NCBI GenBank assembly: GCA_021814165.1 | Contig: JAKAIX010000002.1 | Coordinates: 69,371 to 133,370 of the forward strand | Source of the DNA: a bacterium | Lineage (GTDB): Bacteria; Patescibacteriota; Minisyncoccia; UBA6257; GWB1-50-10 | Length of the DNA: 64,000 bases | Direction: 5' to 3' | Shown here: one piece after another, positions 713 to 42,434 of the stretch | Numbering within the stretch: position 1 is the stretch's first letter | How the letters are laid out: every line of letters starts with the position of its first letter | Notes under the pieces: model-generated | Told to the model about the DNA's origin: nothing | Databases searched by the model: none | What the model saw: only the letters and a program-made list of their open reading frames with translations | Position numbers and translations under genes: made by a program

Positions 713-796
713 GCCGAGGTGGCGAAACTGGCAGACGCACTGGCTTCAGGAGTCAGCGACCGCAAGGTCTTGGGAGTTCAAATCTCCCCCTCGGCA
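713..796 (+). tRNA. tRNA-Leu (anticodon CAG), class II with a long variable arm
   Basis: Acceptor GCCGAGG/CCTCGGC, anticodon stem-loop CTGGC-TTCAGGA-GTCAG with CAG at positions 34-36, long variable arm, and T-arm GGAGTTCAAATCTCC. CCA is not encoded. Confidence 0.8.
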
Positions 797-1047
797 CAAA
801 CAGGAATTTTCAATTATCAATTTCCAATTTTTCCGCCGAAGGCGGGTCATCCTTCGAAGGACAATCAATTTCGTAATTGTAAAATTTTCAAATTGAAAAT
901 TCACTGTCTCCCTACGGGAGATGTTCCGAAGGGACAAAAATTGATCATTGGAAATTGAAAATTAATAAAGTAAATAGCTTTTTCCGCCTTATCCCGAATT
1001 CGGAGTAATGTCGAAATTCCAGAGCGGGTGAAAAGAGTTAATAAAAT

Positions 1048-14794: not shown

Positions 14795-14801
14795 TAGTTT
14801 G

Positions 14802-15139
14802 TGGAGATGGCCGGAGTTGAACCGGCATCCAGTAGCTTCCTTACAAACCTTCTACAAGCTTAGTCCGTTAAGACGATGTTTGATTCTTTGTTTAACGAGC
14901 GTATCCGAATCGCTATACACTCACGAGTCCCATGTATAACACCAGTGATCCTCTATGGAACCTGAAGGACTGATGCCCCTCCTTCGCATAAAGCTACGGG
15001 AGGGGATCCCACACTACGCGTAAGCGAGCGCGGGAACTGCGTTTCTATTGGCAGTTAAAATTGAGTGAAGAGTTTCACGAGATTTTCAGCTCGACCTGCG
15101 GTTTGCAAGGGAATGATACTGTCGAAGCCTAGCATCCCC
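14802..15139 (-). ncRNA. ssrA: tmRNA (SsrA), about 338 nt
   Basis: Minus-strand 5' GGGGATGCTAGGCTTCGAC and 3' ...GCCGGTTCAACTCCGGCCATCTCCA form a 7-bp acceptor stem with one G-U pair, and the T-arm is GCCGG-TTCAACT-CCGGC. A candidate tag ORF GCC AAT AGA AAC GCA GTT CCC GCG CTC GCT TAC GCG TAG encodes ANRNAVPALAYA. smpB is adjacent. Confidence 0.7.
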
Positions 15140-17503: not shown

Positions 17504-18046
17504 TCAAAACCTCATTTGATACCAATCCAGGCCATAGACGGTTTGGATGAGAAGCCGCTCCCCCTTCGCCCACGTGCGGTTTCCTTTGAGACCGAGGAGC
17601 TTGATCGCCTCCTGCACGTGTTCCTCGCTTGATCCTTCAATTTCGAGATACGGCGGCATTCCCGGATAGTAGTCGATCTCAAACTGCCAGTCTTTGAGTA
17701 TGAAGGAAACCCGCTTCTTCTCCTGATACGCATAGCGCTCCAGTCCGATCGCTTCAAAAAACGCGCCCATCTTCTCCGGATCCGAGACAATAAGGTTGAT
17801 CTCCTTATGCGTCCGCGAGGCGCCGAGAATGTCGGACCTTCCTTTCCACGTAACCTCGTGATTGCCTTCCGAATCGGATCGAATCCTAAGATACCACGGA
17901 TCTTCCCCTTCCTTCGTGCCTTGTATGCGGTACCAACGCACGCTCAAAGTGGTGTCTCTCGTCTTTTTCGCGCCGAGTGATCCGAGTTTCTTTTTTACCG
18001 CTTCCGCGTCGATGTCCAAAATCGTCGATTCGGTCTCGTGTGCCAT
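17504..18046 (-). CDS. CYTH-domain protein (class IV adenylate cyclase / triphosphatase family)
   Basis: CYTH-like pattern of charged beta-strands: LRIRSDSEGNHEVTWKG and the C-terminal EIDYYPGMPPYLEIEG. Confidence 0.45.
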   Translation of the reverse strand: MAHETESTILDIDAEAVKKKLGSLGAKKTRDTTLSVRWYRIQGTKEGEDPWYLRIRSDSEGNHEVTWKGRSDILGASRTHKEINLIVSDPEKMGAFFEAIGLERYAYQEKKRVSFILKDWQFEIDYYPGMPPYLEIEGSSEEHVQEAIKLLGLKGNRTWAKGERLLIQTVYGLDWYQMRF

Positions 18047-21312: not shown

Positions 21313-23058
21313 TTATACCACCTCTTTTTGATAGCACTCCTCGCAATACACGACCTCGGGACGATCGGGAGCATACGGCGTTTCGAACTCATTAGGACAC
21401 CTCTCCGGATGTCCGTGATCCGAACCATTGCACATGCATGAACGCCGCCAAAGACGGATGTTTAAGGGATTCCTGTATTCTATTCTTTCATAATGCCGGC
21501 AGTTGGGGCACAACCACGGGAGAGGGAGATGCATCCTCCGATAGAACTGGAGTTCCGACTCCAGAATCCTGAACGCGGTGGTACACTGATGTTCGCACGA
21601 CCCGTTGTGCGCGCACCTTATCGTTTCCTCCGTTATCGAATCGGAAACATTTTTGATGTCGCGAGGTAATTGTCCGGGATCTTTCGTAACGCGGTACTCT
21701 CGCGGAACCGAAACTCCCCAGCGGAAACCAGATTCGATGGCTTTTTCCTTTGTCACGGGATAATATTCCTGCGCGATCGATTCGTTGTACGCGAAGGGAG
21801 AAAACTCCGCCGGAAAGAACTCTCCGAAGGCGTACGTCCTCCCCTTTTCGTCTTTGTACGGCATTGCGTTCATGTGCTCGATGATTTTCGGAATCATCGA
21901 CTCATATTCCTCCTTCGAGTACGGCTTGTTTAGAATATGGTATTGCTTTTTCCGCAACCCCGCGCACCCGAAAATATTCTGCGAAGTTCTGCAGTAATCG
22001 CAGTAGGTTGCGTCACGGATGTCCTCAAAGGTGTTCGTGGAAAACCTGATGAGCGAGTCCCTATATCCCACGTTCACGCCGTCGTACAGGAGTTCCGCTC
22101 CGTTTCCTACGCCATAGAGATCCGCCGAGTCCTTCGCCTCAATGACTCTGATGCCGTAACTCACGTTTTCCAGATCTTCGCCGGTAAAACAATATCTGGC
22201 GTTCTTCGCGTTGATAAGGTTGTTCCCGGTGGCGTTCACGGTTTTGAACAAGCTCGCAAAACGGTGAATTGCTTTCGTCCTCAACGCCTCATACTCGGGG
22301 ATAAGCGCCTGAAACGCCACGCGATCTCCCAAACCCAATTCGCTCATTCTTCGTTCATACTCCTCCTTGGAAAGTTCCTGATTCCTGAACACATATGATT
22401 TGTTCCGCAGGTTTGAACTCATAAAACAATTCCTGCATCCCCTGCAATCGTAGAGAAAAGCGGAGTCAAGACATTCCCTGCAATCGGTCAGATACACGGC
22501 GTTGGCACACCGTTGACAGTCCTGTGATCCATAACAGAGTTGGGAGTCGTACAGGTAGGTTGAGTCCATACTGTCCTGACAGCGCGTGGTTCCGTGGCAG
22601 TAGGAAATATTCTCCGAGTATATGACTGACGAGGAAAGATATACGTTCTTGCTTATCCAGGTGTAGTTGGTGTAGGGCGAGCCCTCATTTTGATAGGCCT
22701 CGAGCGCCATTTTGGGAACCCTCTTGAGAAGCTCCGCGAACTGCACGAAAAACGGTTTACCGAAGTCGTAATCCGTTCCGTACTCCGTCGGATCCCATTT
22801 GTCCGACCACCAACACTCGTTGCAGTATACGATTATGTCCGCGTCGGGATGATACATGGTTATAATGTCCTTTTCACACAGGCCGCACTTCCTCTTAAAA
22901 AGCGCCCGCTCCTGACGGAATACCATCCTTCGCTTCATTCTGCACTCCGGACACCACGTGGGCGGCGGCACTTTTATGTGTTCATAAAACGTAAAATCGT
23001 CCTGCTCGATAACAAATCCTTGCTTGCAGTTTTGACACGTTCTCGATCCCATCTGCAT
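21313..23058 (-). CDS. Cysteine-rich multi-zinc-ribbon protein, paralog 3 of 3
   Basis: 581 aa. It starts MQMGSRTCQNCKQGFVIEQDDFTFYEHIKVPPPTWCPECRMKRR, has the same internal modules, and ends YCEECYQKEVV. Confidence 0.7.
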   Translation of the reverse strand: MQMGSRTCQNCKQGFVIEQDDFTFYEHIKVPPPTWCPECRMKRRMVFRQERALFKRKCGLCEKDIITMYHPDADIIVYCNECWWSDKWDPTEYGTDYDFGKPFFVQFAELLKRVPKMALEAYQNEGSPYTNYTWISKNVYLSSSVIYSENISYCHGTTRCQDSMDSTYLYDSQLCYGSQDCQRCANAVYLTDCRECLDSAFLYDCRGCRNCFMSSNLRNKSYVFRNQELSKEEYERRMSELGLGDRVAFQALIPEYEALRTKAIHRFASLFKTVNATGNNLINAKNARYCFTGEDLENVSYGIRVIEAKDSADLYGVGNGAELLYDGVNVGYRDSLIRFSTNTFEDIRDATYCDYCRTSQNIFGCAGLRKKQYHILNKPYSKEEYESMIPKIIEHMNAMPYKDEKGRTYAFGEFFPAEFSPFAYNESIAQEYYPVTKEKAIESGFRWGVSVPREYRVTKDPGQLPRDIKNVSDSITEETIRCAHNGSCEHQCTTAFRILESELQFYRRMHLPLPWLCPNCRHYERIEYRNPLNIRLWRRSCMCNGSDHGHPERCPNEFETPYAPDRPEVVYCEECYQKEVV

Positions 23059-27988: not shown

Positions 27989-30514
27989 TTATCCTTTGCT
28001 TATCCCGGAATTCGTGGAAAACTCGAACGACCCGTTCCGAAACGTTACGGAGATGCTGTCGCCTCGGCGTACCTCCTTCCTCAATATTTTCTTCGCAAGG
28101 ATGCTTTTCAGCTGGTTTGAAATGACTTCTCGAAGCGGACGCGCGCCGAAGACGGGGTCGTACCCGAGACGCGCAAGTTCCCGGAGCGCCGCATCGTCGC
28201 ACTCGAGCCACAGCCCGTTCCGCTCCTTGAGAGAAGTCGCAAGCTCCCGGATAAGAAGCTTGGTAATGAGATAGGTTTCTTCCTGATTCAAGTTGCGGAA
28301 GACGATGATTCCCGAAAAGCGGTTCAGGAGTTCCGGTTTGAAATAATCCGTCAGTTTTTTCTTCAGTTCCTCGCCGATCGCTTCCGCGGACCGCCCCGCT
28401 TCGATCGAGGATTTGATGAATTCCGAGTGGGCATTCGAGGTTGCGATGATAATCGTGTTCGTAAAGTCGACGACTCTCCCCAAATTATCAGTCAAGCGTC
28501 CGTCATCGAATACGGGGAGAAAAAGATTCAAGAGGTCCGGGTGCGCCTTTTCGAACTCATCGAGAAGAATCAAGGAATATGGGTGCTCCGCGATCGCATC
28601 GGTAAGCGCTCCGGAGTTCGTTCCGTCCGGCGATCCGATAAACTGCGAGATGCTTGCCTTTTCCTGGTACTGCGACATATCAAAACGCTCCATCGCGTCT
28701 TTCGAGCCGAACTGGATTCCCGCAAGGATCTTCGCGAGCTCGGTTTTTCCGACGCCGGTCGGACCCACAAAAAGAAACGTCGCGATCGGTCCGCCTTTTC
28801 TCGAAAGGCCGCTTCGGTACTCCCTGATTGCCTGCGCAACGGCACGCACGGCGTCGTCCTGCCCGATAAGCCGCTCGTGGATTTTTGTTTCAAGGTTCAG
28901 GAGTTGTTCCGTCTCTTCCTTCCCCGCTTGCTGTATCGGGATGCGGCTAAGCTTCTCCGCAACCGCAATTACGTCATCCGCAACCACTTTTTTCTTCTTG
29001 TCCTCGCTTGCTTGCGCGAGTGCTTGTTTCAGAAGATCCATCGCGCTCCCAGGAAGCAGTTTGTTATGAAAGTACCGATGCGCGAGCGTGACCGCCTGTC
29101 GAATCGCGAGAAACGAGATAAACATCTTGTACTGGCGCTCGAGAATCAGGGCTTCGTAGATTAAGACCTTCACCGCGTCGTCCTCGCTTATTTCATTTAC
29201 CCGAACCGTCTCAAACTGTTCGACAAAATCGGAACGCGGCTCAATATATTGTTTATACTCTCTCGGATATGTTTCTCCTATGACCGGAATTATCTCCTCC
29301 TTGATGATGGGAAATATAATGTCGATGGGGTTCAATCCCGCCTTCTGGGATGTCCTGAAAAGATCGTGAACTGAAGGGATATACAGCACGATATTCCCCG
29401 CATTCAGTATCTCCTCAACGATTGTCTTTAAGCGCCCGCTTAGCACCTCGGGCGGCGCGTCAGCGATGAGCGCGCCGATCTCAAGCGATACGAGCCGTTT
29501 ATCGAAGAGCACCGACGGCACCTGGTCTTTTATCATCCTGAACGCGAGATGCGCGATGATACTCGATTTCCCCGCGCCCGGCTCTCCCACGAGGAGCGCG
29601 TTCGGTTTTCCGCTTCTTGAAATTACTTGAATGAGGTTTTGGAATTCCTCCTCGTGCCCCACAAGGAGCCCCACTTCCTCTGCGCGCGCAAGATCCGTGA
29701 GATCGGTCGTAAACTTGTCCAAAACGGGGGTGGGTCGCGCCGTCCATGCGCGGTTCATCACGCGATGTCGGAGAAAGTGCGGCTTGTTCGCGAACCCCCC
29801 GATCGAAGCGGGAAGAAAACGCACCTTGCCGAGCAACCGGCGCCACCTCCCGAAAATCGCCGCCGCTTGCAAATCCTTCATGGTTACGTTGAACGAATCG
29901 AAAACGCTCTGCATCTCCCGAGGAACGTTCGGTAAAGAAACGAGCGCGACAAGAATATTCCTCGTATCGATAAAGCGTTCGTTGCCGCCTATAGCGCTTT
30001 GATGCGCAAGAAGCGTGAGCGCCGCTATTTTTTGCAGAAGCTCTACCGGCGAGGCTGCCGCCTCCTTCGGCGCGTCCGGAAGAAGCTCCTGGATCCTTTT
30101 CCGAAAAGCAGCGGGGTTCACGTCGAGTCGGCTCAACGTCTCCTGAATGTCCTCCTTTTCGGAAAGTGATTCGAGAAGGAGAAAATAAAAATCCTGGCCA
30201 GTCATCTTCGTGCGCCGATACGCGTGGCTTAATACGCGGACGCTCGAAGGAGTGAAGGCTTTTGCGATATTCGCGGTCTTCATTCTTCCGAGCTCGCTTA
30301 AATCACGTTCTCCCTCGCCCGCATGAACCGCGCGGTCTATGAGAAAAAGGGCAAACAGTACGCCGAGCCACGAAAGCGACTCCGATCCGGAAAAGAAGAG
30401 AATCACCGTGGTAGCGGAAAGGAGAATGTACCACGAATATATGGCAAGCCGTACCACGAACTCGTCCGCGGCGTTCAGAAATAGTCTCGATTCTTTGAAA
30501 TAGAACTGCGTCAT
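27989..30514 (-). CDS. ClpC/ClpA-like AAA+ ATPase with an N-terminal transmembrane segment
   Basis: 841 aa. The N-terminal about 60 aa are hydrophobic (LAIYSWYILLSATTVILFF...LGVLFALFLI). Clp-N-like repeats follow, then two Walker A sites, GEPGAGKSS and GPTGVGKTE. Confidence 0.7.
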   Translation of the reverse strand: MTQFYFKESRLFLNAADEFVVRLAIYSWYILLSATTVILFFSGSESLSWLGVLFALFLIDRAVHAGEGERDLSELGRMKTANIAKAFTPSSVRVLSHAYRRTKMTGQDFYFLLLESLSEKEDIQETLSRLDVNPAAFRKRIQELLPDAPKEAAASPVELLQKIAALTLLAHQSAIGGNERFIDTRNILVALVSLPNVPREMQSVFDSFNVTMKDLQAAAIFGRWRRLLGKVRFLPASIGGFANKPHFLRHRVMNRAWTARPTPVLDKFTTDLTDLARAEEVGLLVGHEEEFQNLIQVISRSGKPNALLVGEPGAGKSSIIAHLAFRMIKDQVPSVLFDKRLVSLEIGALIADAPPEVLSGRLKTIVEEILNAGNIVLYIPSVHDLFRTSQKAGLNPIDIIFPIIKEEIIPVIGETYPREYKQYIEPRSDFVEQFETVRVNEISEDDAVKVLIYEALILERQYKMFISFLAIRQAVTLAHRYFHNKLLPGSAMDLLKQALAQASEDKKKKVVADDVIAVAEKLSRIPIQQAGKEETEQLLNLETKIHERLIGQDDAVRAVAQAIREYRSGLSRKGGPIATFLFVGPTGVGKTELAKILAGIQFGSKDAMERFDMSQYQEKASISQFIGSPDGTNSGALTDAIAEHPYSLILLDEFEKAHPDLLNLFLPVFDDGRLTDNLGRVVDFTNTIIIATSNAHSEFIKSSIEAGRSAEAIGEELKKKLTDYFKPELLNRFSGIIVFRNLNQEETYLITKLLIRELATSLKERNGLWLECDDAALRELARLGYDPVFGARPLREVISNQLKSILAKKILRKEVRRGDSISVTFRNGSFEFSTNSGISKG

Positions 30515-31384: not shown

Positions 31385-32296
31385 TCAAAAATACCTCACT
31401 TCTTCCTCCAGGGTTATTCCGAACTTCGCTTTTACCTTCTTTCTTAAAATATCTGCCAATTTTTTAACGTCCTTCGCGGTTGCCTTGCCGGTATTCTCGA
31501 AAAGATTCCCGTGGAAGTCGGGGATTCTGATGCCGCCCTGTCGTATCCCCTTCGCGCCCACTTCTTCAAGGAGGTAGCCGGTGGGTATCTTCCCGCCGAT
31601 TATTTTTGTTGTGTCGATTTTCTTCATCGCGGATCGCGAAACCTCGCTCGCCACCACGTTTTTGAAAAAACTTCCCGGGCATTTGATGCCTGGCTTGTAC
31701 TTTTTTTCTCTGACGGAGACAATCTCTCCCGATTTTTTTTGAAGTTCTTTTTTGTCCCCTCTTTTAAACCGAAGCTCGACGCGAAGCACAAAGAACGGCT
31801 TATGTTTCAATATGCTTTCCCTATATCCGAACCCGCACGCCTTGTTTATAATCCACCTTCTTTTTTTCCCATCCCATATCTCGACCCTTGTGATGACTTC
31901 CGAAATCGAGTGCCCGTAAGCGCCCGCGTTCCCCACCGTCGCGCCGCCGACCGTTCCGGGAATTCCCGAGAGCGTCTCGAGTCCCTTAAATCCGTGCCGT
32001 ATCGCGGTTCTGATAACTTTCATAAGCGGCACGCCCGCGTCGGCGATAATTTTATTATTCGAAATTTTGAGCGATCCTCCGTGAAATCTAACGAGGAGGC
32101 CTTTTAATCCTTCGTCGGGAAATACGATGTTGCTCCCGCCCGCGAATACCCTGAAGGGGATTTTGTGTTTCTTGGCCCACTCGATTGTAACAATCAAATC
32201 CTCTGGTGTTTTTACCAACCGAAACAATTCTGTTTTCCCGCCGATGCGGAACGTTGAAAGAGAGGCGAGGGATATGTTTTTTTGAATTCGAATCAT
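31385..32296 (-). CDS. murB: UDP-N-acetylenolpyruvoylglucosamine reductase
   Basis: FAD-binding FRIGGKTELF...FAGGSNIVF and the MurB C-terminal GLE.LSGIPGTVGGA..GNAGAYG. Confidence 0.8.
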   Translation of the reverse strand: MIRIQKNISLASLSTFRIGGKTELFRLVKTPEDLIVTIEWAKKHKIPFRVFAGGSNIVFPDEGLKGLLVRFHGGSLKISNNKIIADAGVPLMKVIRTAIRHGFKGLETLSGIPGTVGGATVGNAGAYGHSISEVITRVEIWDGKKRRWIINKACGFGYRESILKHKPFFVLRVELRFKRGDKKELQKKSGEIVSVREKKYKPGIKCPGSFFKNVVASEVSRSAMKKIDTTKIIGGKIPTGYLLEEVGAKGIRQGGIRIPDFHGNLFENTGKATAKDVKKLADILRKKVKAKFGITLEEEVRYF

Positions 32297-32401: not shown

Positions 32402-33925
32402 CTAGACGCCTTCCATCACCTGTATATCCGCTCCAATGGAGTTTAGCCGCGAGGCGATTTCCTCATAGCCCCTGTTGATGGAATAAACATTCCGGAGGAT
32501 CGACGTTCCCTCGGCCGCCAGCATGGCGATAAGGATGATCATCGCGGGTCTCAGGGCCGGCGGACACACGATCTGTCCCGCCTTGAGCCGTGTTTTTCCG
32601 GTAATAAAGACGCGGTGCGGATCCGCCAAGGTAACCTGCGCTCCGAGACGGTTTAATTCGGTGAAGTACACGGCTCTGTTTTCCCACATCCAATCGTGGA
32701 TCAGGGTCGTTCCTTCGGCCTGTGTCGCAATCGGCACGAAAAACGGGAGGTTGTCGGAGTTAATGCCGGGATACGGCAGAGAGTGGATCTTATCCGACGG
32801 CGCCTTAAGCTTTGAAGGAAAGACGGTGATATCCACCAGATCCGTTCGTCCGTTGTATGACTTGTACTTCGGCGAAACGGAGAATTTGAGCCCCATCTTT
32901 TCAAGCTTCAGGAGTTCGAGCGAGAGAAAATCGATGGGGCAGCGCGTGATGTGCAATTTCGAGTTCGTCGTCGCCGCGACGGAGATAAACATCATGGACT
33001 CGATCGGATCTTCGCTGTTCCAATACTCTATCGGTTTGTTGATTTCCTTGATCCCGTGGACGACAAGATTGGTCGTGCCGATTCCTTCGATCTTCACCCC
33101 CGCTTTTTCCAAAAAGAAACAGAGTTCCTGCACCTGATAGTTCGGCGGCGCGAAACGAATGGTCGTCGCGCCGGGAATCAGGGCCGCAGCCATCAGAATA
33201 TTGTTTGCCGCCGTATCCCCCGCCTCATACATGACGATCTCCGCAGGTTTCAATTTTTTTGTGGAGACCGTGTAATGATCCGATCTCGTTATAATCGAGA
33301 CGCCGAGTTCTTCCAAACCATAACGATGCGCGGCGATCGTACGGTTTCCCATCTTGCACCCCCCCGCGTGCGGCAACTGAAACTCCGACTCGCGGTGAAC
33401 GAGGGAACCGATAAACATCAAACTCGACCGAACCTTCGAGGCCGCGTCGCGATCAAGTTTTCCGAGCGTAAAATGTTTCGGCGGCATAATCTCGACGCTG
33501 TTCTTCGCAATCCATTTTGCGGAAACGCCGATACTCTCCATAATTTCCATGAGCCGGTTCACCTCCTCGATTCTCGAGATGCCGTGAAGCGTCGTTTTCC
33601 CCCTATTCAAGAGCGAAGCGCATAAAAGCGCCACCGATCCGTTCTTCGAGAAGTTCGTCGCGATGCTTCCCGATAACTTCTTTCCCCCGGTGATTTGGAA
33701 ATCGATCGAGTGGGAGATCGAGACGATTCTTCGATTGAGGATCTTGCTGATCTTCTGGAGTTCTTTCGTGCTGAAATTTTGTTTCCCCGCCTCCATGCGC
33801 GCGACCGCCGACTGGGACGTACCGAGCTCTTTTGCAAAGGCCGCCTGGGTCATGCCACGTTCTTCCCGGAGATTCTTGATGAAATACCCTATCTTCTCCT
33901 GTGTATTCTGGTGGGTGATTGCCAT
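32402..33925 (-). CDS. murA: XRE-type HTH domain fused to UDP-N-acetylglucosamine 1-carboxyvinyltransferase (MurA)
   Basis: The N-terminal about 65 aa read IGYFIKNLREERGMTQAAFAKELGTSQSAVARMEAGKQNFSTKELQKISKIL (classic XRE HTH). The rest is MurA-like (ITGGKKLSGSIATNFSKNGSVALLCASLL...). Confidence 0.75.
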   Translation of the reverse strand: MAITHQNTQEKIGYFIKNLREERGMTQAAFAKELGTSQSAVARMEAGKQNFSTKELQKISKILNRRIVSISHSIDFQITGGKKLSGSIATNFSKNGSVALLCASLLNRGKTTLHGISRIEEVNRLMEIMESIGVSAKWIAKNSVEIMPPKHFTLGKLDRDAASKVRSSLMFIGSLVHRESEFQLPHAGGCKMGNRTIAAHRYGLEELGVSIITRSDHYTVSTKKLKPAEIVMYEAGDTAANNILMAAALIPGATTIRFAPPNYQVQELCFFLEKAGVKIEGIGTTNLVVHGIKEINKPIEYWNSEDPIESMMFISVAATTNSKLHITRCPIDFLSLELLKLEKMGLKFSVSPKYKSYNGRTDLVDITVFPSKLKAPSDKIHSLPYPGINSDNLPFFVPIATQAEGTTLIHDWMWENRAVYFTELNRLGAQVTLADPHRVFITGKTRLKAGQIVCPPALRPAMIILIAMLAAEGTSILRNVYSINRGYEEIASRLNSIGADIQVMEGV

Positions 33926-34000
33926 ATATCATATATGATATAAATCCAGATAAAAAAGTAAAGTGTGCAACAAAACTCCTATATTGCTTATAATTAGCAT

Positions 34001-34573
34001 ATGGATTTACGCTTCGTTCTTGGAGTTTTGGGTGGTATTATCACTGCATTTTCCGTTATCCCCTATGTACGGGATATTATGAAGAAAACAACGCGCCCGA
34101 ATTCTGTCTCATGGTCCATTTGGGTACTTCTTCTTACTATTTCGATTTTCGCTCAATGGAGCGCCGGAGCGTCGTGGTCGATTATTCTTCTTATAGGCGA
34201 TCTAATCGGCACAAGTACCATCGCCGCGCTTTCTTTCGCGGGCTACGGCTACGGAAAATATGGCCGCCTCGAGTGGACGTGTCTCGGCCTCGCAATCCTC
34301 GCAATTATTTCCTGGCAAATTACAAGCCAACCGATCTGGGCGATTGTCTTCGCAATCATCGCCGATGCGCTCGCGGCATTTCCCACGCTCGTCAAGGCGT
34401 TCCGCGATCCCCGCTCCGAACACCCGACTATGTGGCTCCTAATTTCATTGGGCGCTCTCCTCGGTATCGCTTCAACCACAATCGTTAATGCCGCAAATCT
34501 TCTCTTCCCCTTTTATCTCTTTGTGATTAACAGCACAATTGGCATCACGACGCTCGTCGGGAGAAAAAAATAA
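34001..34573 (+). CDS. Hypothetical polytopic membrane protein
   Basis: 190 aa with about 6 hydrophobic segments. Confidence 0.4.
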   Translation: MDLRFVLGVLGGIITAFSVIPYVRDIMKKTTRPNSVSWSIWVLLLTISIFAQWSAGASWSIILLIGDLIGTSTIAALSFAGYGYGKYGRLEWTCLGLAILAIISWQITSQPIWAIVFAIIADALAAFPTLVKAFRDPRSEHPTMWLLISLGALLGIASTTIVNAANLLFPFYLFVINSTIGITTLVGRKK

Positions 34574-34580
34574 GTTTTTT

Positions 34581-34774
34581 TGTGCCCTCGATAGGAAGCA
34601 AACGTCGCTTCGCTCCTTGAGAACCCTCGGTTCTCAACGGGCTTCGCCCTGCTCTCCTACACGGGAGACCAGCGTGTTCTCCCTGCCTGCGCAGGCGGGC
34701 CGACCCCACTCCTGTTCGATTCCTTTGAGAAAAAATCAAAAATCCCCAGGACAAGCCCGGGGACTTTTGATTTG
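34581..34774. other. Structured GC-rich segment bounded by a 17-nt imperfect direct repeat of the tRNA-Arg 3' end (TGTGCCCTCGAYAGGAA at 34581-34597 and 34773-34789)
   Basis: Contains the hairpin TTGAGAACC-CTC-GGTTCTCAA, a family-A core variant CCTGCCTGCGCAGGCGGG, and a terminator-like hairpin ATCAAAAGTCCCC...GGGGATTTTTGAT. Confidence 0.5.
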
Positions 34775-34846
34775 TGCCCTCGACAGGAATCGAACCTGTA
34801 TCTTCTCCTTCGGAGGGAGATATTCTATCCATTGGACTACGAGGGC
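34775..34846 (-). tRNA. tRNA-Arg (anticodon CCG)
   Basis: Minus-strand sequence GCCCTCGTAGTCCAATGGATAGAATATCTCCCTCCGAAGGAGAAGATACAGGTTCGATTCCTGTCGAGGGCA. The anticodon loop is CT-CCG-AA and the T-arm is ACAGG-TTCGATT-CCTGT. Confidence 0.8.
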
Positions 34847-34887
34847 TCCCTTCCTAAACAAAAATTACCACAAAGATGGGTGGTTTG

Positions 34888-36180
34888 CTAACCATTTCCC
34901 TGCTTCTGCCCCAGGCCCAGAAGCAGGCCTGCGGAGAGCCAAAACATAAGCTGGCCCGCCTCTAAATCCCACATGAAGTGGTCTACGAGACCGAAGAGAA
35001 GGAGGCCGCCAAAAAGCACGCTCACCACGAAAATCTCGTGGGTCTTCTCTTCTCCCTTTGTTTCCTTGAAGCGCCTGAATGCGGAGCGAAATACAAGGAA
35101 TAAAAAGACAAGGAACGCCGAGACGCCCGCAATCCCGCTCTCCGTCGCTACTAAAATGTACAGGTTATGAATCGGCTGTTCTTGCCACGAAAGCGAGAGG
35201 CCCTGTTCGCCGTACAATCCTTCGTGTGCGGCGGTCAGAATCTGATTTCCCCACCCAACGCCGAAGGGGTGACGAAGAAGAAGTTCGGCACCGATCGTAT
35301 TGTACCGTACCCGATGATCTACCGAAGGCTCCTCGGCGGTGAAGTGCGCGCGGGGAAACACTAGCCACCCGAACTGGATAAGAAGCGCTGCGAGCGTTAT
35401 CACCACGACACAGAAAAGGAAAAATGCACGGGAGCGAAGCGGTTTTTTTAGAAAACCATATAAAAGAAGTGCGGCGACGCTTAGTGCCGCGACGATCCAT
35501 CCCGATCGGGAGAAAGTAAGAAGAAGGCCGCCAAGAAGAATAAAAACACAGATTCCGAGAGACGTATTTTCCCATCGTTTCTTGTCTCCCAAAAACAGAA
35601 GTCCGATCGCCGCGACGATTCCCATTACAAAGAGTGCCGCGAGAATATTCGCGTGCGGCATCGTGCCGTAGATACGGAGGAACGAGAGGTCACCGACACT
35701 TACCCTCGCAACACCCTTCGTAAGCGAGGTGATGAATGATTCCCCAAAGAGGTGCAGTCCCACGCTCGCCTGCGCGCCGAACTGGAAGAACCCCACAACA
35801 CCCTGAAGCATGGAGGAGATTACGAGAAGCCATAAAATTATTCTGAGCTCAATGGTTCCTTTTCGGAGAAGCGCCGCGACGGCGAGCGCGAAAAGGAGGA
35901 AAAGGAGAAGGTGAATCCATTTGTAAACAATAAGCCACGGGTCGGAAGACCAAAAGACCGGAAGAAGCCCCAGGAGAGAGAAAGCAAGAAGGAGTTTCGT
36001 GATAGCGTCCCGTTTAATCGCGCGCACGCCCCACGCCGCGAGAAAAAACACAAGAAGGATATCAATCCCGAAGAGGAAAATTGAATGATAATCGCTCACT
36101 CCCGGCGTAAAGGAGAAGAGATATTTTTTCGTCCCCACGGGGATCAAAAACGCGAGGACATATACAAACCAGGAACTCAT
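34888..36180 (-). CDS. O-antigen ligase / polymerase-like polytopic membrane protein
   Basis: 430 aa with more than 10 TM segments and a large periplasmic loop; the Wzy/WaaL-like topology is a tentative call. Confidence 0.4.
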   Translation of the reverse strand: MSSWFVYVLAFLIPVGTKKYLFSFTPGVSDYHSIFLFGIDILLVFFLAAWGVRAIKRDAITKLLLAFSLLGLLPVFWSSDPWLIVYKWIHLLLFLLFALAVAALLRKGTIELRIILWLLVISSMLQGVVGFFQFGAQASVGLHLFGESFITSLTKGVARVSVGDLSFLRIYGTMPHANILAALFVMGIVAAIGLLFLGDKKRWENTSLGICVFILLGGLLLTFSRSGWIVAALSVAALLLYGFLKKPLRSRAFFLFCVVVITLAALLIQFGWLVFPRAHFTAEEPSVDHRVRYNTIGAELLLRHPFGVGWGNQILTAAHEGLYGEQGLSLSWQEQPIHNLYILVATESGIAGVSAFLVFLFLVFRSAFRRFKETKGEEKTHEIFVVSVLFGGLLLFGLVDHFMWDLEAGQLMFWLSAGLLLGLGQKQGNG

Positions 36181-40611: not shown

Positions 40612-41190
40612 TTAACGCTTCCCTAAAATCCTCAATGCCTGCCGCAGGCGGTCCTCAAGCGTCTCCGCTTCCGGCCCAACTTCTCCCAACGCCTTCCGTA
40701 TTTCTTGCCGTCCGTAGCCGAGCCCCGAAAGCGCGTCTTCAATCTCCATATTCGCACTTACCACCCGCCCCATTGCTTCGGCCTTGGGAAGAGCAATCCT
40801 GTTATTGAGATCGAGTATTATGCGTTCCGCGGTTTTCTTCCCGATACCGGAGGCGCGTGCGAGCACTTCGGTTTGTTTGTTTATGATGGCCGCCATCACA
40901 TGTTCCACCGTGTCGACGTCCAAGACCGAGAGGGCGGTCTTGGGACCTACGCCGGAGACGGAGATGAGAAACTCAAAAAGCTTGAGCGCTTCTTCCTCTG
41001 GAAATCCGTATAAATCAAGTTGGTCTTCGCGTACATAAAGATGACAAAAAAGCGCCACGTTTTCTCCTTCGTGAGGCAGGCGGGAAAACGTTCGTTCGTT
41101 CGTAAATATCTTAAATCCTATGCCTCCCGTTTTCACAACGAGGAAGTGGTCCTCGCGGCGCAAGAGCGTCCCTTCGACGGTGTAAACCAT
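40612..41190 (-). CDS. ruvA: Holliday junction DNA helicase RuvA
   Basis: The N-terminal OB domain, the tandem HhH region (VSGVGPKTALSVL...ASGIGKKTAERII) and the C-terminal domain are all typical of RuvA. Confidence 0.8.
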   Translation of the reverse strand: MVYTVEGTLLRREDHFLVVKTGGIGFKIFTNERTFSRLPHEGENVALFCHLYVREDQLDLYGFPEEEALKLFEFLISVSGVGPKTALSVLDVDTVEHVMAAIINKQTEVLARASGIGKKTAERIILDLNNRIALPKAEAMGRVVSANMEIEDALSGLGYGRQEIRKALGEVGPEAETLEDRLRQALRILGKR

Positions 41191-41372: not shown

Positions 41373-41648
41373 ATGCCTATTACGAAATCGGCACAAAAGG
41401 CCCATCGACAGACCGCACGCAGACGAAAGCGGAATCTTCTGAGAAAAAAGAAGATGCTTTCTTCTATTAAGGAGTTTAAAAAACTCGCCGCAACGGGCGA
41501 TCCGAAAGCAAACGAAAAACTCCCCTCACTCTACAAAACCATCGATAAAATGAAGAAGGTGAAGCTTATTAAGCGCGGGAGAGCGAATCGGTTGAAATCG
41601 CGCCTCACGAAAAAGCTACGCGCCGGCTCCAAGGAGCACAAATCGTAA
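41373..41648 (+). CDS. rpsT: Ribosomal protein S20
   Basis: MPITKSAQKAHRQTARRRKRNLLRKKKM... I chose the start at 41373, the internal Met that matches S20. Confidence 0.8.
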   Translation: MPITKSAQKAHRQTARRRKRNLLRKKKMLSSIKEFKKLAATGDPKANEKLPSLYKTIDKMKKVKLIKRGRANRLKSRLTKKLRAGSKEHKS

Positions 41649-42434
41649 CAGCGCCTCCTCGTACTCCATTTTCCCGCTCTTTACCGCCACGTCGTAATCG
41701 GCGAGGGCGATGAGTTCGTTCCCGCGAGCCCCGTAGGCGAGTGAATTGAAAATATAAGCCCCCGCTTCGCGCTGAAGGAACAGGCGCTCAAGGAGCGATA
41801 TCCGCTCTTTCCAGTTCCGCGTTGAGAGCATTTCCCTTGTTACGCGGAACACTTCAAATTTCAGAGAGTAGTTGATATATCTCCCAAGCTCCGCTCGCGA
41901 GAGCGGTTTTCCGTTTCCAAGAAGCGAGAGTTTATCGAGCTCCGTGACCGCAACCCAACTGCGTTCTTCCGCTGCGTCGAGAGACTCGAGAAAGAAGCGA
42001 AGCGCGTCCGGAGCGAGCTCGACTTCTCTCGCCTTCATTTCCTCGCGCACAAACACCTCAAGAAGTCGTCCTCCGAGAGTCTTGAATTCCTGGGTGCGTA
42101 CCGGCGACTCAAGAAGAAAGCGGAAATCCTTGAGCGGCCCTTTTTCTTCAGAAAGAATAAGAAAGATCTTCTTGTTTTCCAAAAAAGATTTTATGGTTTT
42201 TACCCATTCTTTTTCTTTCGTTTCGCCGGGATTTTTCACCACGGCAACCTTCGAATCCACGAACATTGAGGGCTGGTTTAGAAAATCCCTTACTTTTTCC
42301 CAATCCTTCGGTTCGTCCTCAAGGTCGACCGAATAAAGATCAAGGCTGGGGTACTTCTTTTTGTATTCGGAAAGGAGCGCTCCGAGCTTTTTCTGGCGCC
42401 TATAGGAATCAGGTCCGTAAAGGTAAATAACCAT
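41616..42434 (-). CDS. holA: DNA polymerase III delta subunit-like (HolA, short form)
   Basis: N-terminus MVIYLYGPDSYRRQKKLGALL..., an AAA-lid-like middle region, and the usual holA-rpsT neighbourhood. Its 3' end overlaps rpsT by 33 bp in convergent orientation. Confidence 0.5.
   Translation of the reverse strand: MVIYLYGPDSYRRQKKLGALLSEYKKKYPSLDLYSVDLEDEPKDWEKVRDFLNQPSMFVDSKVAVVKNPGETKEKEWVKTIKSFLENKKIFLILSEEKGPLKDFRFLLESPVRTQEFKTLGGRLLEVFVREEMKAREVELAPDALRFFLESLDAAEERSWVAVTELDKLSLLGNGKPLSRAELGRYINYSLKFEVFRVTREMLSTRNWKERISLLERLFLQREAGAYIFNSLAYGARGNELIALADYDVAVKSGKMEYEEALLRFVLLGAGA

What the first reader, a model, noticed from the sequence alone, without database searches (positions are those of the whole stretch)
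32402..33925. XRE-family HTH domain fused to MurA
The first about 65 residues (IGYFIKNLREERGMTQAAFAKELGTSQSAVARMEAGKQNFSTKELQKISKIL) are a textbook XRE/Cro-type HTH. They join directly to a full-length MurA enolpyruvyl transferase, which catalyses the first committed step of peptidoglycan synthesis; murB follows. A DNA-binding domain on a cell-wall biosynthetic enzyme suggests direct transcriptional feedback, or enzyme sequestration at DNA. I do not know of a described HTH-MurA fusion.
Basis: partly seen in the sequence, partly recalled or inferred. Interest (0 to 1): 0.6.

Follow-up and report, generated by a model that had tools for sequence, protein, structure and literature searches.

The report
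Self-regulating MurA enzyme with DNA-binding head
A cell-wall enzyme (MurA) of an ultra-small 'candidate phyla radiation' bacterium carries a real, widely conserved DNA-binding domain. An 18-bp palindrome sits on its own promoter in almost every relative, so the enzyme very probably switches off its own gene (and murB), a kind of cell-wall control I found described nowhere.

Summary
Window 32402-33925 (-) is one uninterrupted 507-aa ORF with an XRE-type HTH (aa 8-67), a roughly 10-aa linker and a full MurA domain (aa 76-504). murB follows.

It is not an artefact. The identical protein lies on 13 independently assembled contigs, and 76 of 80 species-level relatives (Parcubacteria/Paceibacteria) have the same single-frame fusion.

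The main new result is a perfect 18-bp palindrome, TATATCATATATGATATA (33925-33942), on the gene's promoter and start codon.
- It is present in 68 of 72 evaluable fusion loci, and three more have it further upstream.
- It is sharply bounded and almost absent elsewhere in 632 kb.
- It is absent from 6 of 6 relatives that lost the HTH. Those keep only the -10 half.
- It is kept in a 70% GC genome.
- In 29 loci it sits centrally between divergent murB and HTH-murA.
- An unbiased metagenome scan for the palindrome returned two recurrent neighbours: HTH-MurA, and Gp49-toxin/XRE-antitoxin modules whose HTH is 28-52% identical over the aligned stretch (46-52% in the seven closest of ten).

Distant family members have lost the catalytic loop and sit beside a separate murA-murB operon.

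Best reading: a bifunctional enzyme-repressor that autoregulates murA and murB. Nothing has been shown biochemically. Five literature searches found no description.

The parts
32402..33925 (-). HTH-MurA coding sequence (507 aa plus stop)
   Evidence: The identical ORF is on 13 contigs.
33725..33904 (-). XRE/Cro-C1 type helix-turn-helix domain (aa 8-67). Model helices are 8-22, 27-34, 38-45 and 53-63.
   Evidence: Pfam HTH_3 E 4e-15. AF2 model secondary structure.
33791..33814 (-). Predicted recognition helix (aa 38-45, QSAVARME, within the near-invariant TSQSAVARME)
   Evidence: T36, Q38, A40, A42, R43 and E45 are invariant in 89 sequences. Helix 38-45 in the model. Assigning it as the DNA-reading helix is an inference from the XRE fold.
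33701..33736 (-). Linker (aa 64-75), conserved in sequence but of low model confidence
   Evidence: pLDDT about 67, and below 50 at aa 69-71. Motif S73, D75, F76 is nearly invariant.
32405..33700 (-). MurA (UDP-GlcNAc enolpyruvyl transferase) domain, aa 76-507. The catalytic Cys190 codon is at 33356-33358.
   Evidence: K94, N95, R166, C190, R195, D391, R417, R459 and R485 correspond to E. coli K22, N23, R91, C115, R120, D305, R331, R371 and R397. All are invariant in the clade.
33925..33942 (.). Candidate operator: the perfect 18-bp palindrome TATATCATATATGATATA. It overlaps the -10 hexamer and the A of the start codon.
   Evidence: It is the only match in the window with up to 3 mismatches. 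It is conserved in 68 of 72 fusion loci and absent in 6 of 6 HTH-less loci.
33935..33962 (-). Promoter-like site: -35 TTTACT (33957-33962), a 16-nt spacer, then -10 TATCAT (33935-33940). The predicted transcription start is about 2-3 nt before the ATG, giving a leaderless or near-leaderless mRNA with no Shine-Dalgarno motif.
   Evidence: Consensus scan. HTH-less relatives keep TATCAT 8-9 nt before their ATG. Leaderless-type promoters are common in the window. The transcription start is inferred, not measured.
31385..32296 (-). murB (UDP-N-acetylmuramate dehydrogenase), probably co-transcribed with HTH-murA
   Evidence: NCBIfam TIGR00179 194 bits against 144.5. No terminator-like site lies on the minus strand in the 105-nt gap. 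Co-transcription is inferred.

Best explanation
The gene encodes a bifunctional protein, made of a catalytically competent MurA with an N-terminal XRE-type DNA-binding domain.

Proposed mechanism: two copies bind the 18-bp palindrome TATATCATATATGATATA. This site is superimposed on the -10 element, transcription start and start codon of the protein's own, probably leaderless, murA-murB transcript. Bound protein keeps RNA polymerase off, so MurA sets its own level and that of MurB by negative feedback. In relatives where murB is transcribed divergently, a single central site covers both back-to-back promoters.

The MurA body probably also acts as the sensor, with occupancy by a UDP-sugar or PEP changing DNA affinity. 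Distant relatives have lost catalysis yet keep the HTH, the MurA fold and the operator next to a separate murA-murB operon.

**Shown here:**
- The fusion is real and conserved.
- The palindrome is conserved, specific and positioned on the promoter.
- The palindrome is gained and lost with the HTH.
- The catalytic residues are conserved.

**Inferred:**
- DNA binding itself.
- Dimerisation.
- The sign of regulation (repression).
- Enzyme activity.
- Ligand control.
For: **1. The fusion is real.**

**2. Footprint.** In 72 evaluable fusion loci the 16-bp core (up to 2 mismatches) lies within -150..+10 of the ATG in 68. Three more have it at -156, -182 and -351. Only 2 weak matches occur elsewhere in 632 kb. 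Composition-matched control patterns give 0-2 hits against 80. Information content is about 2 bits across 18 bp and below 0.6 bits outside. The two flanking positions were not part of the search pattern, yet are T in 70 of 70 and A in 67 of 70.

**3. Gain and loss with the HTH.** Six independent MurA orthologues at about 80% identity lack the HTH, and none has the palindrome. At least four of them keep TATCAT 8-9 nt before the ATG, so the promoter half survives while the symmetric arm has decayed.

**4. Deep conservation.** The site is kept in members only 35-52% identical, including CATCTCATATGTGAGATA 21.5 nt before the ATG in a 70% GC genome.

**5. Geometry.**
- The modal distance from dyad to ATG is 17.5-20.5 nt. 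That is what a leaderless mRNA from the extended -10 (TGnTATAnT) formed by the outer arm would give.
- In 29 loci murB is divergent. Intergenic regions are as short as 34 bp, with the dyad 17.5 nt from both ATGs.
- Where the site is far from murA it lies 17.5-20.5 nt from murB.

**6. Independent link between this HTH type and this DNA.** An unbiased metagenome scan for the palindrome gave 120 loci. The only recurrent neighbours were HTH-MurA (27 loci), MurB (5 loci) and 11 Gp49-toxin/HTH_3-antitoxin modules. The antitoxin HTH is 28-52% identical to this one over the aligned 48-65 residues, and 46-52% in the seven closest of ten. Its recognition helix is most often TKQSN[IV]ARIE.

**7. Protein-DNA co-variation.** The clade with recognition helix SS[IV]PR has half-site TGAGAT in 6 of 6 loci.

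**8. Enzyme side.** K22, N23, R91, C115, R120, D305, R331, R371 and R397 equivalents are invariant. The model matches MurA structures at TM 0.90-0.92. murB is adjacent in 32 loci. No second murA lies in the window or within 4 kb in 81 loci.

**9. Sensor idea.** P0132, P0133, P0168, P0174, P0215 and P0233 lack the GGC..R catalytic loop but keep the HTH. L203 and L206-208 sit divergently from a separate murA-murB operon, and L209 from an operon that includes a separate murA. In all three the fusion gene is followed by ddl or mur-ligase genes.
Against: - No binding, activity or expression data exist. Everything rests on comparative sequence analysis.
- MurA enzymes are, from general knowledge, usually monomers, and an XRE domain needs a dimer for a palindrome. 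No dimer interface was tested.
- The linker has low model confidence, so coupling between enzyme state and the HTH is unsupported structurally.
- Most positions of the palindrome can also be read as two back-to-back extended -10 elements, so part of its conservation may be promoter function.
- E. coli D369 is replaced (Ala457, clade motif CPPALRPA), and the TIGR01072 equivalog cut-off is missed. Full catalytic competence is therefore not certain.
- The recognition-helix/half-site co-variation is probably a single evolutionary event, and other helix variants (SAINR) keep the consensus site.
- About 80 of the 120 metagenome hits to the palindrome have no related HTH nearby. These are chance matches or of unknown cause.
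- Only 64 kb of this genome could be scanned, so a larger regulon or a second murA cannot be excluded.
Confidence: 0.7

Rival explanations
1. Pure regulator. The window protein binds the palindrome, but its MurA-like domain is only a ligand sensor with no or negligible catalysis, and a separate MurA elsewhere in the genome does the chemistry.
For: - Distant members have clearly lost the catalytic loop and sit next to a separate murA.
- D369 is not conserved and the TIGR01072 equivalog cut-off is missed.
- Only 64 kb of the genome was visible.
Against: - Nine of ten catalytic or substrate-binding residues are invariant across the clade, including Cys115 and the Lys22/Arg120/Arg397 triad.
- HTH-less orthologues at about 80% identity exist as plain 438-aa MurA proteins.
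- No second murA lies in the window or near any of 81 loci.
- The gene is paired with murB in 32 loci.
Confidence: 0.1
2. The palindrome is bound by the HTH, but binding activates transcription or acts as a switch, rather than repressing.
For: - The sign of regulation was not measured.
- Some XRE proteins, such as the restriction-modification controller proteins that are among the nearest solved relatives, activate at low and repress at high concentration (general knowledge).
Against: - The site covers the -10 element, transcription start and start codon, not a position upstream of the -35.
- In the toxin-antitoxin modules it covers the extended -10 (TGATATAAT), directly downstream of a TTGACA -35-like hexamer. 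That is a repressor geometry.
Confidence: 0.1
3. The palindrome is only a compact bidirectional or leaderless promoter made of two back-to-back extended -10 boxes. The HTH would then do something else, such as protein-protein contact or non-specific nucleoid association.
For: - Positions 1-7 and 12-18 can each be read as TGnTATA of an extended -10.
- The 17.5-nt spacing fits a leaderless start.
- Leaderless-type promoters are common in this genome.
Against: - Other leaderless-type promoters in the window carry a plain TATAAT with no palindrome, and there is no second match in 64 kb.
- The full palindrome is kept where no divergent gene needs the second arm, as in the window and the toxin-antitoxin loci.
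- HTH-less orthologues keep the -10 half and lose the other arm.
- The central bases and the 'n' positions, which a promoter does not need, are 77-100% conserved.
- The only recurrent neighbours of the palindrome in metagenomes encode this HTH subtype.
Confidence: 0.06
4. The fusion is an artefact of sequencing, assembly or gene calling, and really represents two genes.
For: None was found. A few 438-aa database entries lack the HTH.
Against: - One frame with no stop.
- The identical protein is on 13 contigs.
- 76 of 80 species show a single alignment segment.
- The 438-aa forms are true HTH-less genes with in-frame stops upstream.
Confidence: 0.01

Closest known systems
Bifunctional enzyme-repressors ('trigger enzymes'): BirA (biotin ligase with winged HTH), PutA (proline dehydrogenase with RHH), NadR (HTH with NMN adenylyltransferase). 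Comparison from general knowledge.
   Same: One polypeptide combines a metabolic enzyme with a DNA-binding domain and controls the genes of its own pathway. The operator overlaps the promoter.
   Different: The enzyme fold (EPSP-synthase/MurA), the pathway (peptidoglycan) and the DNA-binding family (XRE) all differ. Ligand control is known for BirA, PutA and NadR but is only conjectured here. None of them regulates cell-wall synthesis.
Canonical MurA (E. coli and Enterobacter cloacae MurA; PDB 1uae, 3kqj, 1naw)
   Same: - Same fold (TM 0.90-0.92).
- 28% identity over 432 aligned columns.
- Cys115, Lys22, Arg120, Arg397, Asp305, Asn23, Arg91, Arg331 and Arg371 equivalents are present.
- murB is the neighbour.
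   Different: - About 75 extra N-terminal residues form an HTH and linker.
- A roughly 12-residue insertion lies around aa 351-365.
- Asp369 is replaced within the clade motif CPPALRPA.
- The score is below the TIGR01072 equivalog cut-off.
- From general knowledge, known MurA control is post-translational: ClpCP/ReoM proteolysis in Firmicutes and feedback by UDP-MurNAc. It is not a built-in DNA-binding domain.
XRE-family antitoxins of Gp49 (HigB/RelE-like) toxin-antitoxin modules
   Same: - The HTH is 28-52% identical over the aligned stretch, and 46-52% in the seven closest of ten.
- The recognition helix is very similar.
- The same 18-bp palindrome sits on the promoter.
- Autoregulation by antitoxins is a general property of type II systems.
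   Different: No toxin gene lies next to HTH-murA. The HTH is fused to a 430-aa enzyme rather than standing as a roughly 100-aa protein. The target is murA/murB rather than a toxin operon.
BzdR-type regulators (XRE HTH fused to a shikimate-kinase-like sensor domain; NCBIfam NF006015 gave a weak HTH-only hit)
   Same: An XRE HTH is fused to an enzyme-derived domain that serves as the ligand sensor. This resembles the catalytically degenerate members of this family (P0174, P0215 and others).
   Different: The sensor fold and pathway differ. The window protein still looks catalytically intact.

Membership tests
MurA (UDP-N-acetylglucosamine 1-carboxyvinyltransferase, EC 2.5.1.7) | EPSP-synthase fold and profile match | tested here: met
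   - Pfam PF00275 E 1e-43 over aa 79-493.
- NF006873 scores 323.6 bits against a cut-off of 297.
- Foldseek TM 0.90-0.92 to MurA crystal structures.
MurA (UDP-N-acetylglucosamine 1-carboxyvinyltransferase, EC 2.5.1.7) | Equivalog-level profile score (TIGR01072) | tested here: not met
   310.5 bits against a cut-off of 392.7. This is a divergent subfamily.
MurA (UDP-N-acetylglucosamine 1-carboxyvinyltransferase, EC 2.5.1.7) | Catalytic loop Cys115 (or Asp) plus the PEP-binding Lys22/Arg120/Arg397 triad and Asp305 | tested here: met
   C190, K94, R195, R485 and D391 align to these residues and are invariant in 89 sequences. Residue roles are taken from general knowledge of E. coli and E. cloacae MurA.
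MurA (UDP-N-acetylglucosamine 1-carboxyvinyltransferase, EC 2.5.1.7) | Asp369 equivalent | tested here: not met
   It aligns to Ala457 within the invariant motif CPPALRPA. The consequence is unknown.
MurA (UDP-N-acetylglucosamine 1-carboxyvinyltransferase, EC 2.5.1.7) | Enolpyruvyl transfer from PEP to UDP-GlcNAc | not testable with these tools
   This needs an enzyme assay or complementation. Indirect support: murB is adjacent in 32 of 81 loci and no second murA is nearby.
XRE / Cro-C1 helix-turn-helix DNA-binding domain (PF01381) | Profile match above the curated cut-off and a helical bundle with an HTH motif | tested here: met
   HTH_3 scores 55.9 bits against 23. Four helices at 8-22, 27-34, 38-45 and 53-63 with pLDDT 85-90.
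XRE / Cro-C1 helix-turn-helix DNA-binding domain (PF01381) | Sequence-specific binding to a dyad-symmetric operator as a dimer | tested here: inconclusive
   A conserved 18-bp palindrome co-occurs with the domain and with homologous antitoxin HTHs. Binding and dimerisation were not measured.
Trigger enzymes / bifunctional enzyme-repressors | The same polypeptide is both an active enzyme and a transcription regulator of related genes | tested here: inconclusive
   Both halves are conserved, and the candidate operator lies on its own promoter and on murB's. Neither activity was shown.
Trigger enzymes / bifunctional enzyme-repressors | Regulatory output depends on the enzyme's substrate or product state | not testable with these tools
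   There is only indirect support. Degenerate paralogues keep the MurA fold as an apparent sensor.
Type II toxin-antitoxin antitoxin (HigA-like) | Encoded next to, and neutralising, a cognate toxin | tested here: not met
   No Gp49/RelE-like gene is next to HTH-murA in the window or in the loci. Only the HTH and the operator are shared.

The most novel reading that the evidence does not exclude
HTH-MurA defines a previously unrecognised family of peptidoglycan-precursor regulators in candidate-phyla-radiation bacteria. In this family the MurA fold itself is the metabolite sensor, for UDP-GlcNAc, UDP-MurNAc or PEP. The family would span an evolutionary series:
1. A DNA-binding head and its operator captured from a toxin-antitoxin antitoxin.
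2. A bifunctional enzyme-repressor, as in this window.
3. After duplication, catalytically dead 'pseudo-MurA' repressors that control a separate murA-murB/ddl/mur-ligase cluster.
4. In some lineages, loss of the head with decay of the operator.
Probability: 0.4. Interest if true: 0.85.

Novelty: new variant of a known kind. Interest (0 to 1): 0.72.

Why it matters
MurA catalyses the first committed step of cell-wall synthesis and is the target of fosfomycin. How cells set its level is an active question. From general knowledge, the known answers are proteolysis in Firmicutes and cross-talk with LpxC in Pseudomonas.

A built-in repressor domain would be a third and much simpler solution. It occurs in organisms with tiny genomes and few regulators that cannot yet be grown alone.

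The prediction is unusually testable:
- a defined 18-bp site;
- a soluble enzyme with standard assays;
- natural controls, namely head-less orthologues and catalytically dead paralogues.

It also offers a clean example of how an enzyme becomes a transcription factor, and of a regulatory module (HTH plus operator) that may have been recycled from a toxin-antitoxin system.

Tried and rejected
- **Frameshift or assembly artefact.** Rejected.
- **438-aa database forms as mis-called starts.** Rejected. In-frame stops lie upstream and there is no HTH in any frame, so these are true losses.
- **RNA element or riboswitch upstream.** Rfam finds nothing there at gathering threshold. In the modal geometry the palindrome lies upstream of the predicted transcription start, so it would not be in the mRNA.
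- **Larger regulon.** No second site in the 64-kb window with up to 3 mismatches. No recurrent gene family beside the palindrome in metagenomes other than HTH-MurA, MurB and the toxin-antitoxin pair. The rest of the genome could not be read.
- **Second murA nearby.** None.
- **A simple recognition code between helix and half-site.** Only one clade co-varies. SAINR/SAVNR variants occur with both consensus and variant sites, so this is weak evidence.
- **Structure comparison with AFDB.** The library was unavailable. PDB has no HTH-MurA.
- **Literature.** Five searches with different term sets found no paper on an HTH-MurA fusion or MurA autoregulation. Subscription-only papers are not covered.
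- **Dimer or DNA-complex modelling.** Not possible with the single-chain predictor.
Full report
**1. The observation**

Window 32402-33925 (minus strand) is one open frame of 507 codons from ATG to TAG.
- Pfam finds HTH_3 at residues 16-67 (E 4e-15) and EPSP_synthase at 79-493 (E 1e-43).
- NCBIfam places the C-terminal part in the MurA subfamily NF006873 (323.6 bits, cut-off 297). It falls below the strict equivalog TIGR01072 (310 against 392.7).
- The next gene on the same strand, 31385-32296, is murB.

**2. The fusion is not an artefact**

- The identical 507-aa protein is recorded on 13 contigs from NCBI, ENA and Logan assemblies.
- A search of 5.8 billion proteins returned over a hundred clusters of 69-92% identity and 500-579 aa (most 500-517) with both Pfam domains. 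Where named, they come from Uhr-, Yanofsky-, Zambryskibacteria, Paceibacterota and Parcubacteria, and are labelled simply as MurA.
- In one-genome-per-species contigs, 249 stretches encode relatives. Of the 80 loci kept, 76 align from the HTH through to the end of MurA in a single tblastn segment.
- The exceptions are informative. L021, L042 and L054, plus L212, L213/214 and L215 fetched later, are true 438-aa MurA genes about 80% identical to the window enzyme. They have in-frame stops upstream and no HTH. Their identity is higher than that of most HTH-bearing relatives, which suggests the HTH was lost secondarily. L055 is cut by its contig end.

**3. A conserved palindrome on the promoter**

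Directly 5' of the ATG lies ATATCATATATGATAT. With one more base on each side it is the perfect 18-mer TATATCATATATGATATA (33925-33942), whose last A is the A of the start codon. It is the only match in the 64-kb window even with 3 mismatches.

Upstream regions of the 80 relatives are otherwise unalignable, yet the palindrome is shared.
- Of 72 HTH-bearing loci with enough upstream sequence, 68 have the 16-bp core (up to 2 mismatches) within -150..+10 of the ATG. Three more have it at -156, -182 and -351.
- Only two weak matches lie elsewhere in 632 kb.
- The reversed pattern gives 2 hits and three other AT-rich palindromes give none, against 80 for the real one.
- Information content is close to 2 bits over 18 positions and drops below 0.6 bits immediately outside. 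The two outer positions were not in the search pattern, yet are T in 70 of 70 and A in 67 of 70.

This is the footprint expected of a binding site for a symmetric dimer.

**4. The palindrome goes with the HTH**

- None of the six independent HTH-less loci has it, even with 5 mismatches within 400 nt for L212-L215.
- At least four of them (L021, L212, L213/214, L215) still have TATCAT 8-9 nt before the ATG. This is the same -10-like hexamer, at the same distance, that forms the left arm in the window. The other arm has decayed. L212 keeps a recognisable relic, 'tatcatatcgatat', and L054 keeps only the half-site TATATCATA.
- The promoter half is thus retained without the HTH, and the symmetry only with it.
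- Members only 35-52% identical in the first 130 residues still carry the site in front of the gene or its operon:
  - L203: TATAACATATATGCTATA, 18.5 nt from the ATG.
  - L204: AATATCAGATATGATATA.
  - L206: TATATCATATATGATATT, behind a TTGACA.
  - L209: CATATCATATATGATATA.
  - L210: TATATCATATAGGATATA, before the first gene of the operon.
  - L211: CATCTCATATGTGAGATA, 21.5 nt before the ATG in a genome of 70% GC.

**5. Geometry**

- In the window, a consensus scan finds TTTACT-16-TATCAT (33962-33935), with the -10 inside the palindrome. There is no Shine-Dalgarno motif.
- This genome seems to use leaderless-type promoters widely. Only 11 of 47 long ORFs have an SD-like core. Nine of 47 have a near-consensus TATAAT ending 5-9 nt before the ATG, against 1.8% of random positions.
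- Across relatives, the commonest dyad-to-ATG distance is 17.5-20.5 nt. That places the ATG 7 nt after a -10 hexamer TATAnT, which is formed by the last four bases of the 18-mer plus two flanking bases and is preceded by TG. This amounts to an extended -10 driving a leaderless mRNA.
- murB lies downstream on the same strand in three loci, including the window. In 29 loci it is divergent and immediately upstream. There the intergenic region can be only 34 bp, with the dyad 17.5 nt from both start codons (L015, L019, L056). Where the site is far from murA it is 17.5-20.5 nt from murB (L026, L028, L032, L036).
- One bound dimer would therefore cover the -10 and start of murA, and in many species of murB as well. 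That geometry points to repression. The transcription starts are inferred, not measured.

**6. An independent link between this HTH type and this DNA**

I scanned public metagenome contigs for the palindrome itself (TATATCAYATRTGATATA), without reference to any gene.

Clustering the genes that start next to the sites gave three recurrent families:
- HTH-MurA (27 loci).
- MurB (5 loci).
- A Gp49-family toxin of about 125 aa (11 loci), followed in the ten loci where it could be read by an HTH_3 antitoxin of about 100 aa.

The other flanking ORFs formed only occasional pairs or singletons (63 singletons).

The antitoxin HTH is 28-52% identical to the MurA-borne HTH over the aligned 48-65 residues, and 46-52% in the seven closest of ten. 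Its recognition helix is very similar, most often TKQSN[IV]ARIE against TSQSAVARME. In these loci the palindrome follows a TTGACA, and its 3' end forms TGATATAAT. Antitoxins of type II systems are known to repress their own promoters.

So the same HTH subtype and the same 18-mer co-occur in two unrelated gene contexts. This supports recognition of the site by the domain. It also suggests that HTH and operator were captured together from such a module. The direction of that transfer is an inference.

**7. The two halves of the protein**

*HTH.* The AlphaFold2 model has mean pLDDT 88 and pTM 0.81. It shows helices at 8-22, 27-34, 38-45 and 53-63, then a linker of lower confidence (aa 64-73; 69-71 below 50). 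T36, Q38, A40, A42, R43, E45, G47, Q49 and N50 are invariant in 89 sequences. A clade with SS[IV]PR in place of SAVAR has the half-site TGAGAT in 6 of 6 loci. This is suggestive but probably one event, and other helix variants do not follow a simple rule.

*MurA.* The E. coli sequence used was verified as identical to PDB 1uae. Against it, K22, N23, R91, C115, R120, D305, R331, R371 and R397 correspond to K94, N95, R166, C190, R195, D391, R417, R459 and R485. All are invariant. D369 is replaced, aligning to Ala457 in the invariant motif CPPALRPA. The model superposes on MurA crystal structures at TM 0.90-0.92, and no solved structure includes the HTH. No other murA-like gene lies in the window or within 4 kb in 81 loci.

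I therefore take the window protein to be an active MurA. The D369 change and the unread remainder of the genome keep this open.

**8. Degenerate relatives**

P0132, P0133, P0168, P0174, P0215 and P0233 keep the HTH (TSQSA[VI]ARIEKG) and the overall MurA-like length. They lack the GGC..R loop and several PEP-binding arginines. Their neighbourhoods are as follows.
- In L203 and L206-208 the gene is divergent from a separate murA(438-452 aa)-murB operon and is followed by ddl and/or a Mur ligase.
- In L209 it is divergent from a 164-aa gene, a Mur ligase and murA.
- In L210 it follows NUDIX and a nucleotidyl transferase.

These look like dedicated regulators that use a dead MurA fold as sensor. 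That is the main reason to think the MurA body in the window protein may also modulate DNA binding. This step is conjecture.

**9. Comparison with what is known**

- In mechanism, the closest analogues are the bifunctional enzyme-repressors BirA, PutA and NadR. For the degenerate members the closest are XRE regulators with enzyme-derived sensors, such as BzdR. These comparisons rest on general knowledge.
- Known control of MurA is post-translational.
- Five full-text searches found no paper describing an HTH-MurA fusion or transcriptional autoregulation by MurA. Subscription-only literature is not covered.
- I rate it a new variant of a known kind. The principle is established, while the enzyme, the pathway and the lineage-wide conservation are new.

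**10. Limits**

- There are no experimental data.
- Dimerisation was not tested, and MurA is usually monomeric.
- The HTH-enzyme coupling is not supported by the model's linker.
- Part of the palindrome's conservation may be promoter function.
- About two thirds of the metagenome hits to the palindrome have no related HTH nearby and are presumably chance matches in AT-rich DNA.
- Only 64 kb of the genome was visible.

**Verdict**

- Confidence in the autoregulatory enzyme-repressor model is 0.7.
- Interest is 0.72.

Noticed in passing
window-wide, e.g. 17504-18046(-), 21313-23058(-), 34001-34573(+), 40612-41190(-), 41616-42434(-): Most long ORFs lack a Shine-Dalgarno motif (11 of 47 have one). 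Nine of 47 have a near-consensus TATAAT ending 5-9 nt before the ATG, against 1.8% of random positions. This suggests widespread leaderless mRNAs in this genome.
   Followed up: partly
metagenome loci L096, L108, L112, L138, L151, L154, L169, L171, L172, L191, L194: Gp49-family toxin plus HTH_3 antitoxin modules carry exactly the same 18-bp palindrome on a TTGACA/TGATATAAT promoter. The antitoxin HTH is 28-52% identical to the MurA-borne HTH over the aligned stretch. This is a possible source of the HTH and operator.
   Followed up: partly
L203 3001-4530, L206 3001-4503, L209 3001-4506, L210 3001-4554, L204 1474-2952, L205 713-2260: These are HTH-MurA-like proteins that have lost the catalytic Cys/Arg loop. 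In L203 and L206-208 they are divergent from a separate murA-murB operon, and in L209 from an operon that includes murA. In those loci they are followed by ddl or mur-ligase genes. They look like pseudo-enzyme regulators.
   Followed up: partly
window 27989-30514 (-): The 841-aa ORF has two P-loop motifs (GEPGAGKS, GPTGVGKT), as in Clp/Hsp100 ATPases. It begins with about 60 largely hydrophobic residues, possibly a membrane anchor (translation). No domain search was run on it.
   Followed up: no
window 34001-34573 (+): A divergent 190-aa, very hydrophobic ORF with no Pfam hit lies 75 bp from HTH-murA. It has its own TATAAT 6 nt before the ATG. It is conserved next to murA only in the closest relatives.
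   Followed up: partly
window 34774-34846 (-), 14799-15139 (-), 713-797 (+): tRNA-Arg(CCG), tmRNA (tag ANRNAVPALAYA) and tRNA-Leu(CAG). The many short ORFs listed around 34545-34950 overlap the tRNA and are spurious.
   Followed up: yes
window 34888-36180 (-): A 430-aa polytopic membrane protein with a Wzy_C (O-antigen ligase/polymerase-like) domain, according to precomputed Pfam.
   Followed up: no
proteins P0124, P0128, P0131, P0171: Long proteins (647-1923 aa) contain 7-11 tandem copies of an HTH related to this one. Their function is unknown.
   Followed up: no
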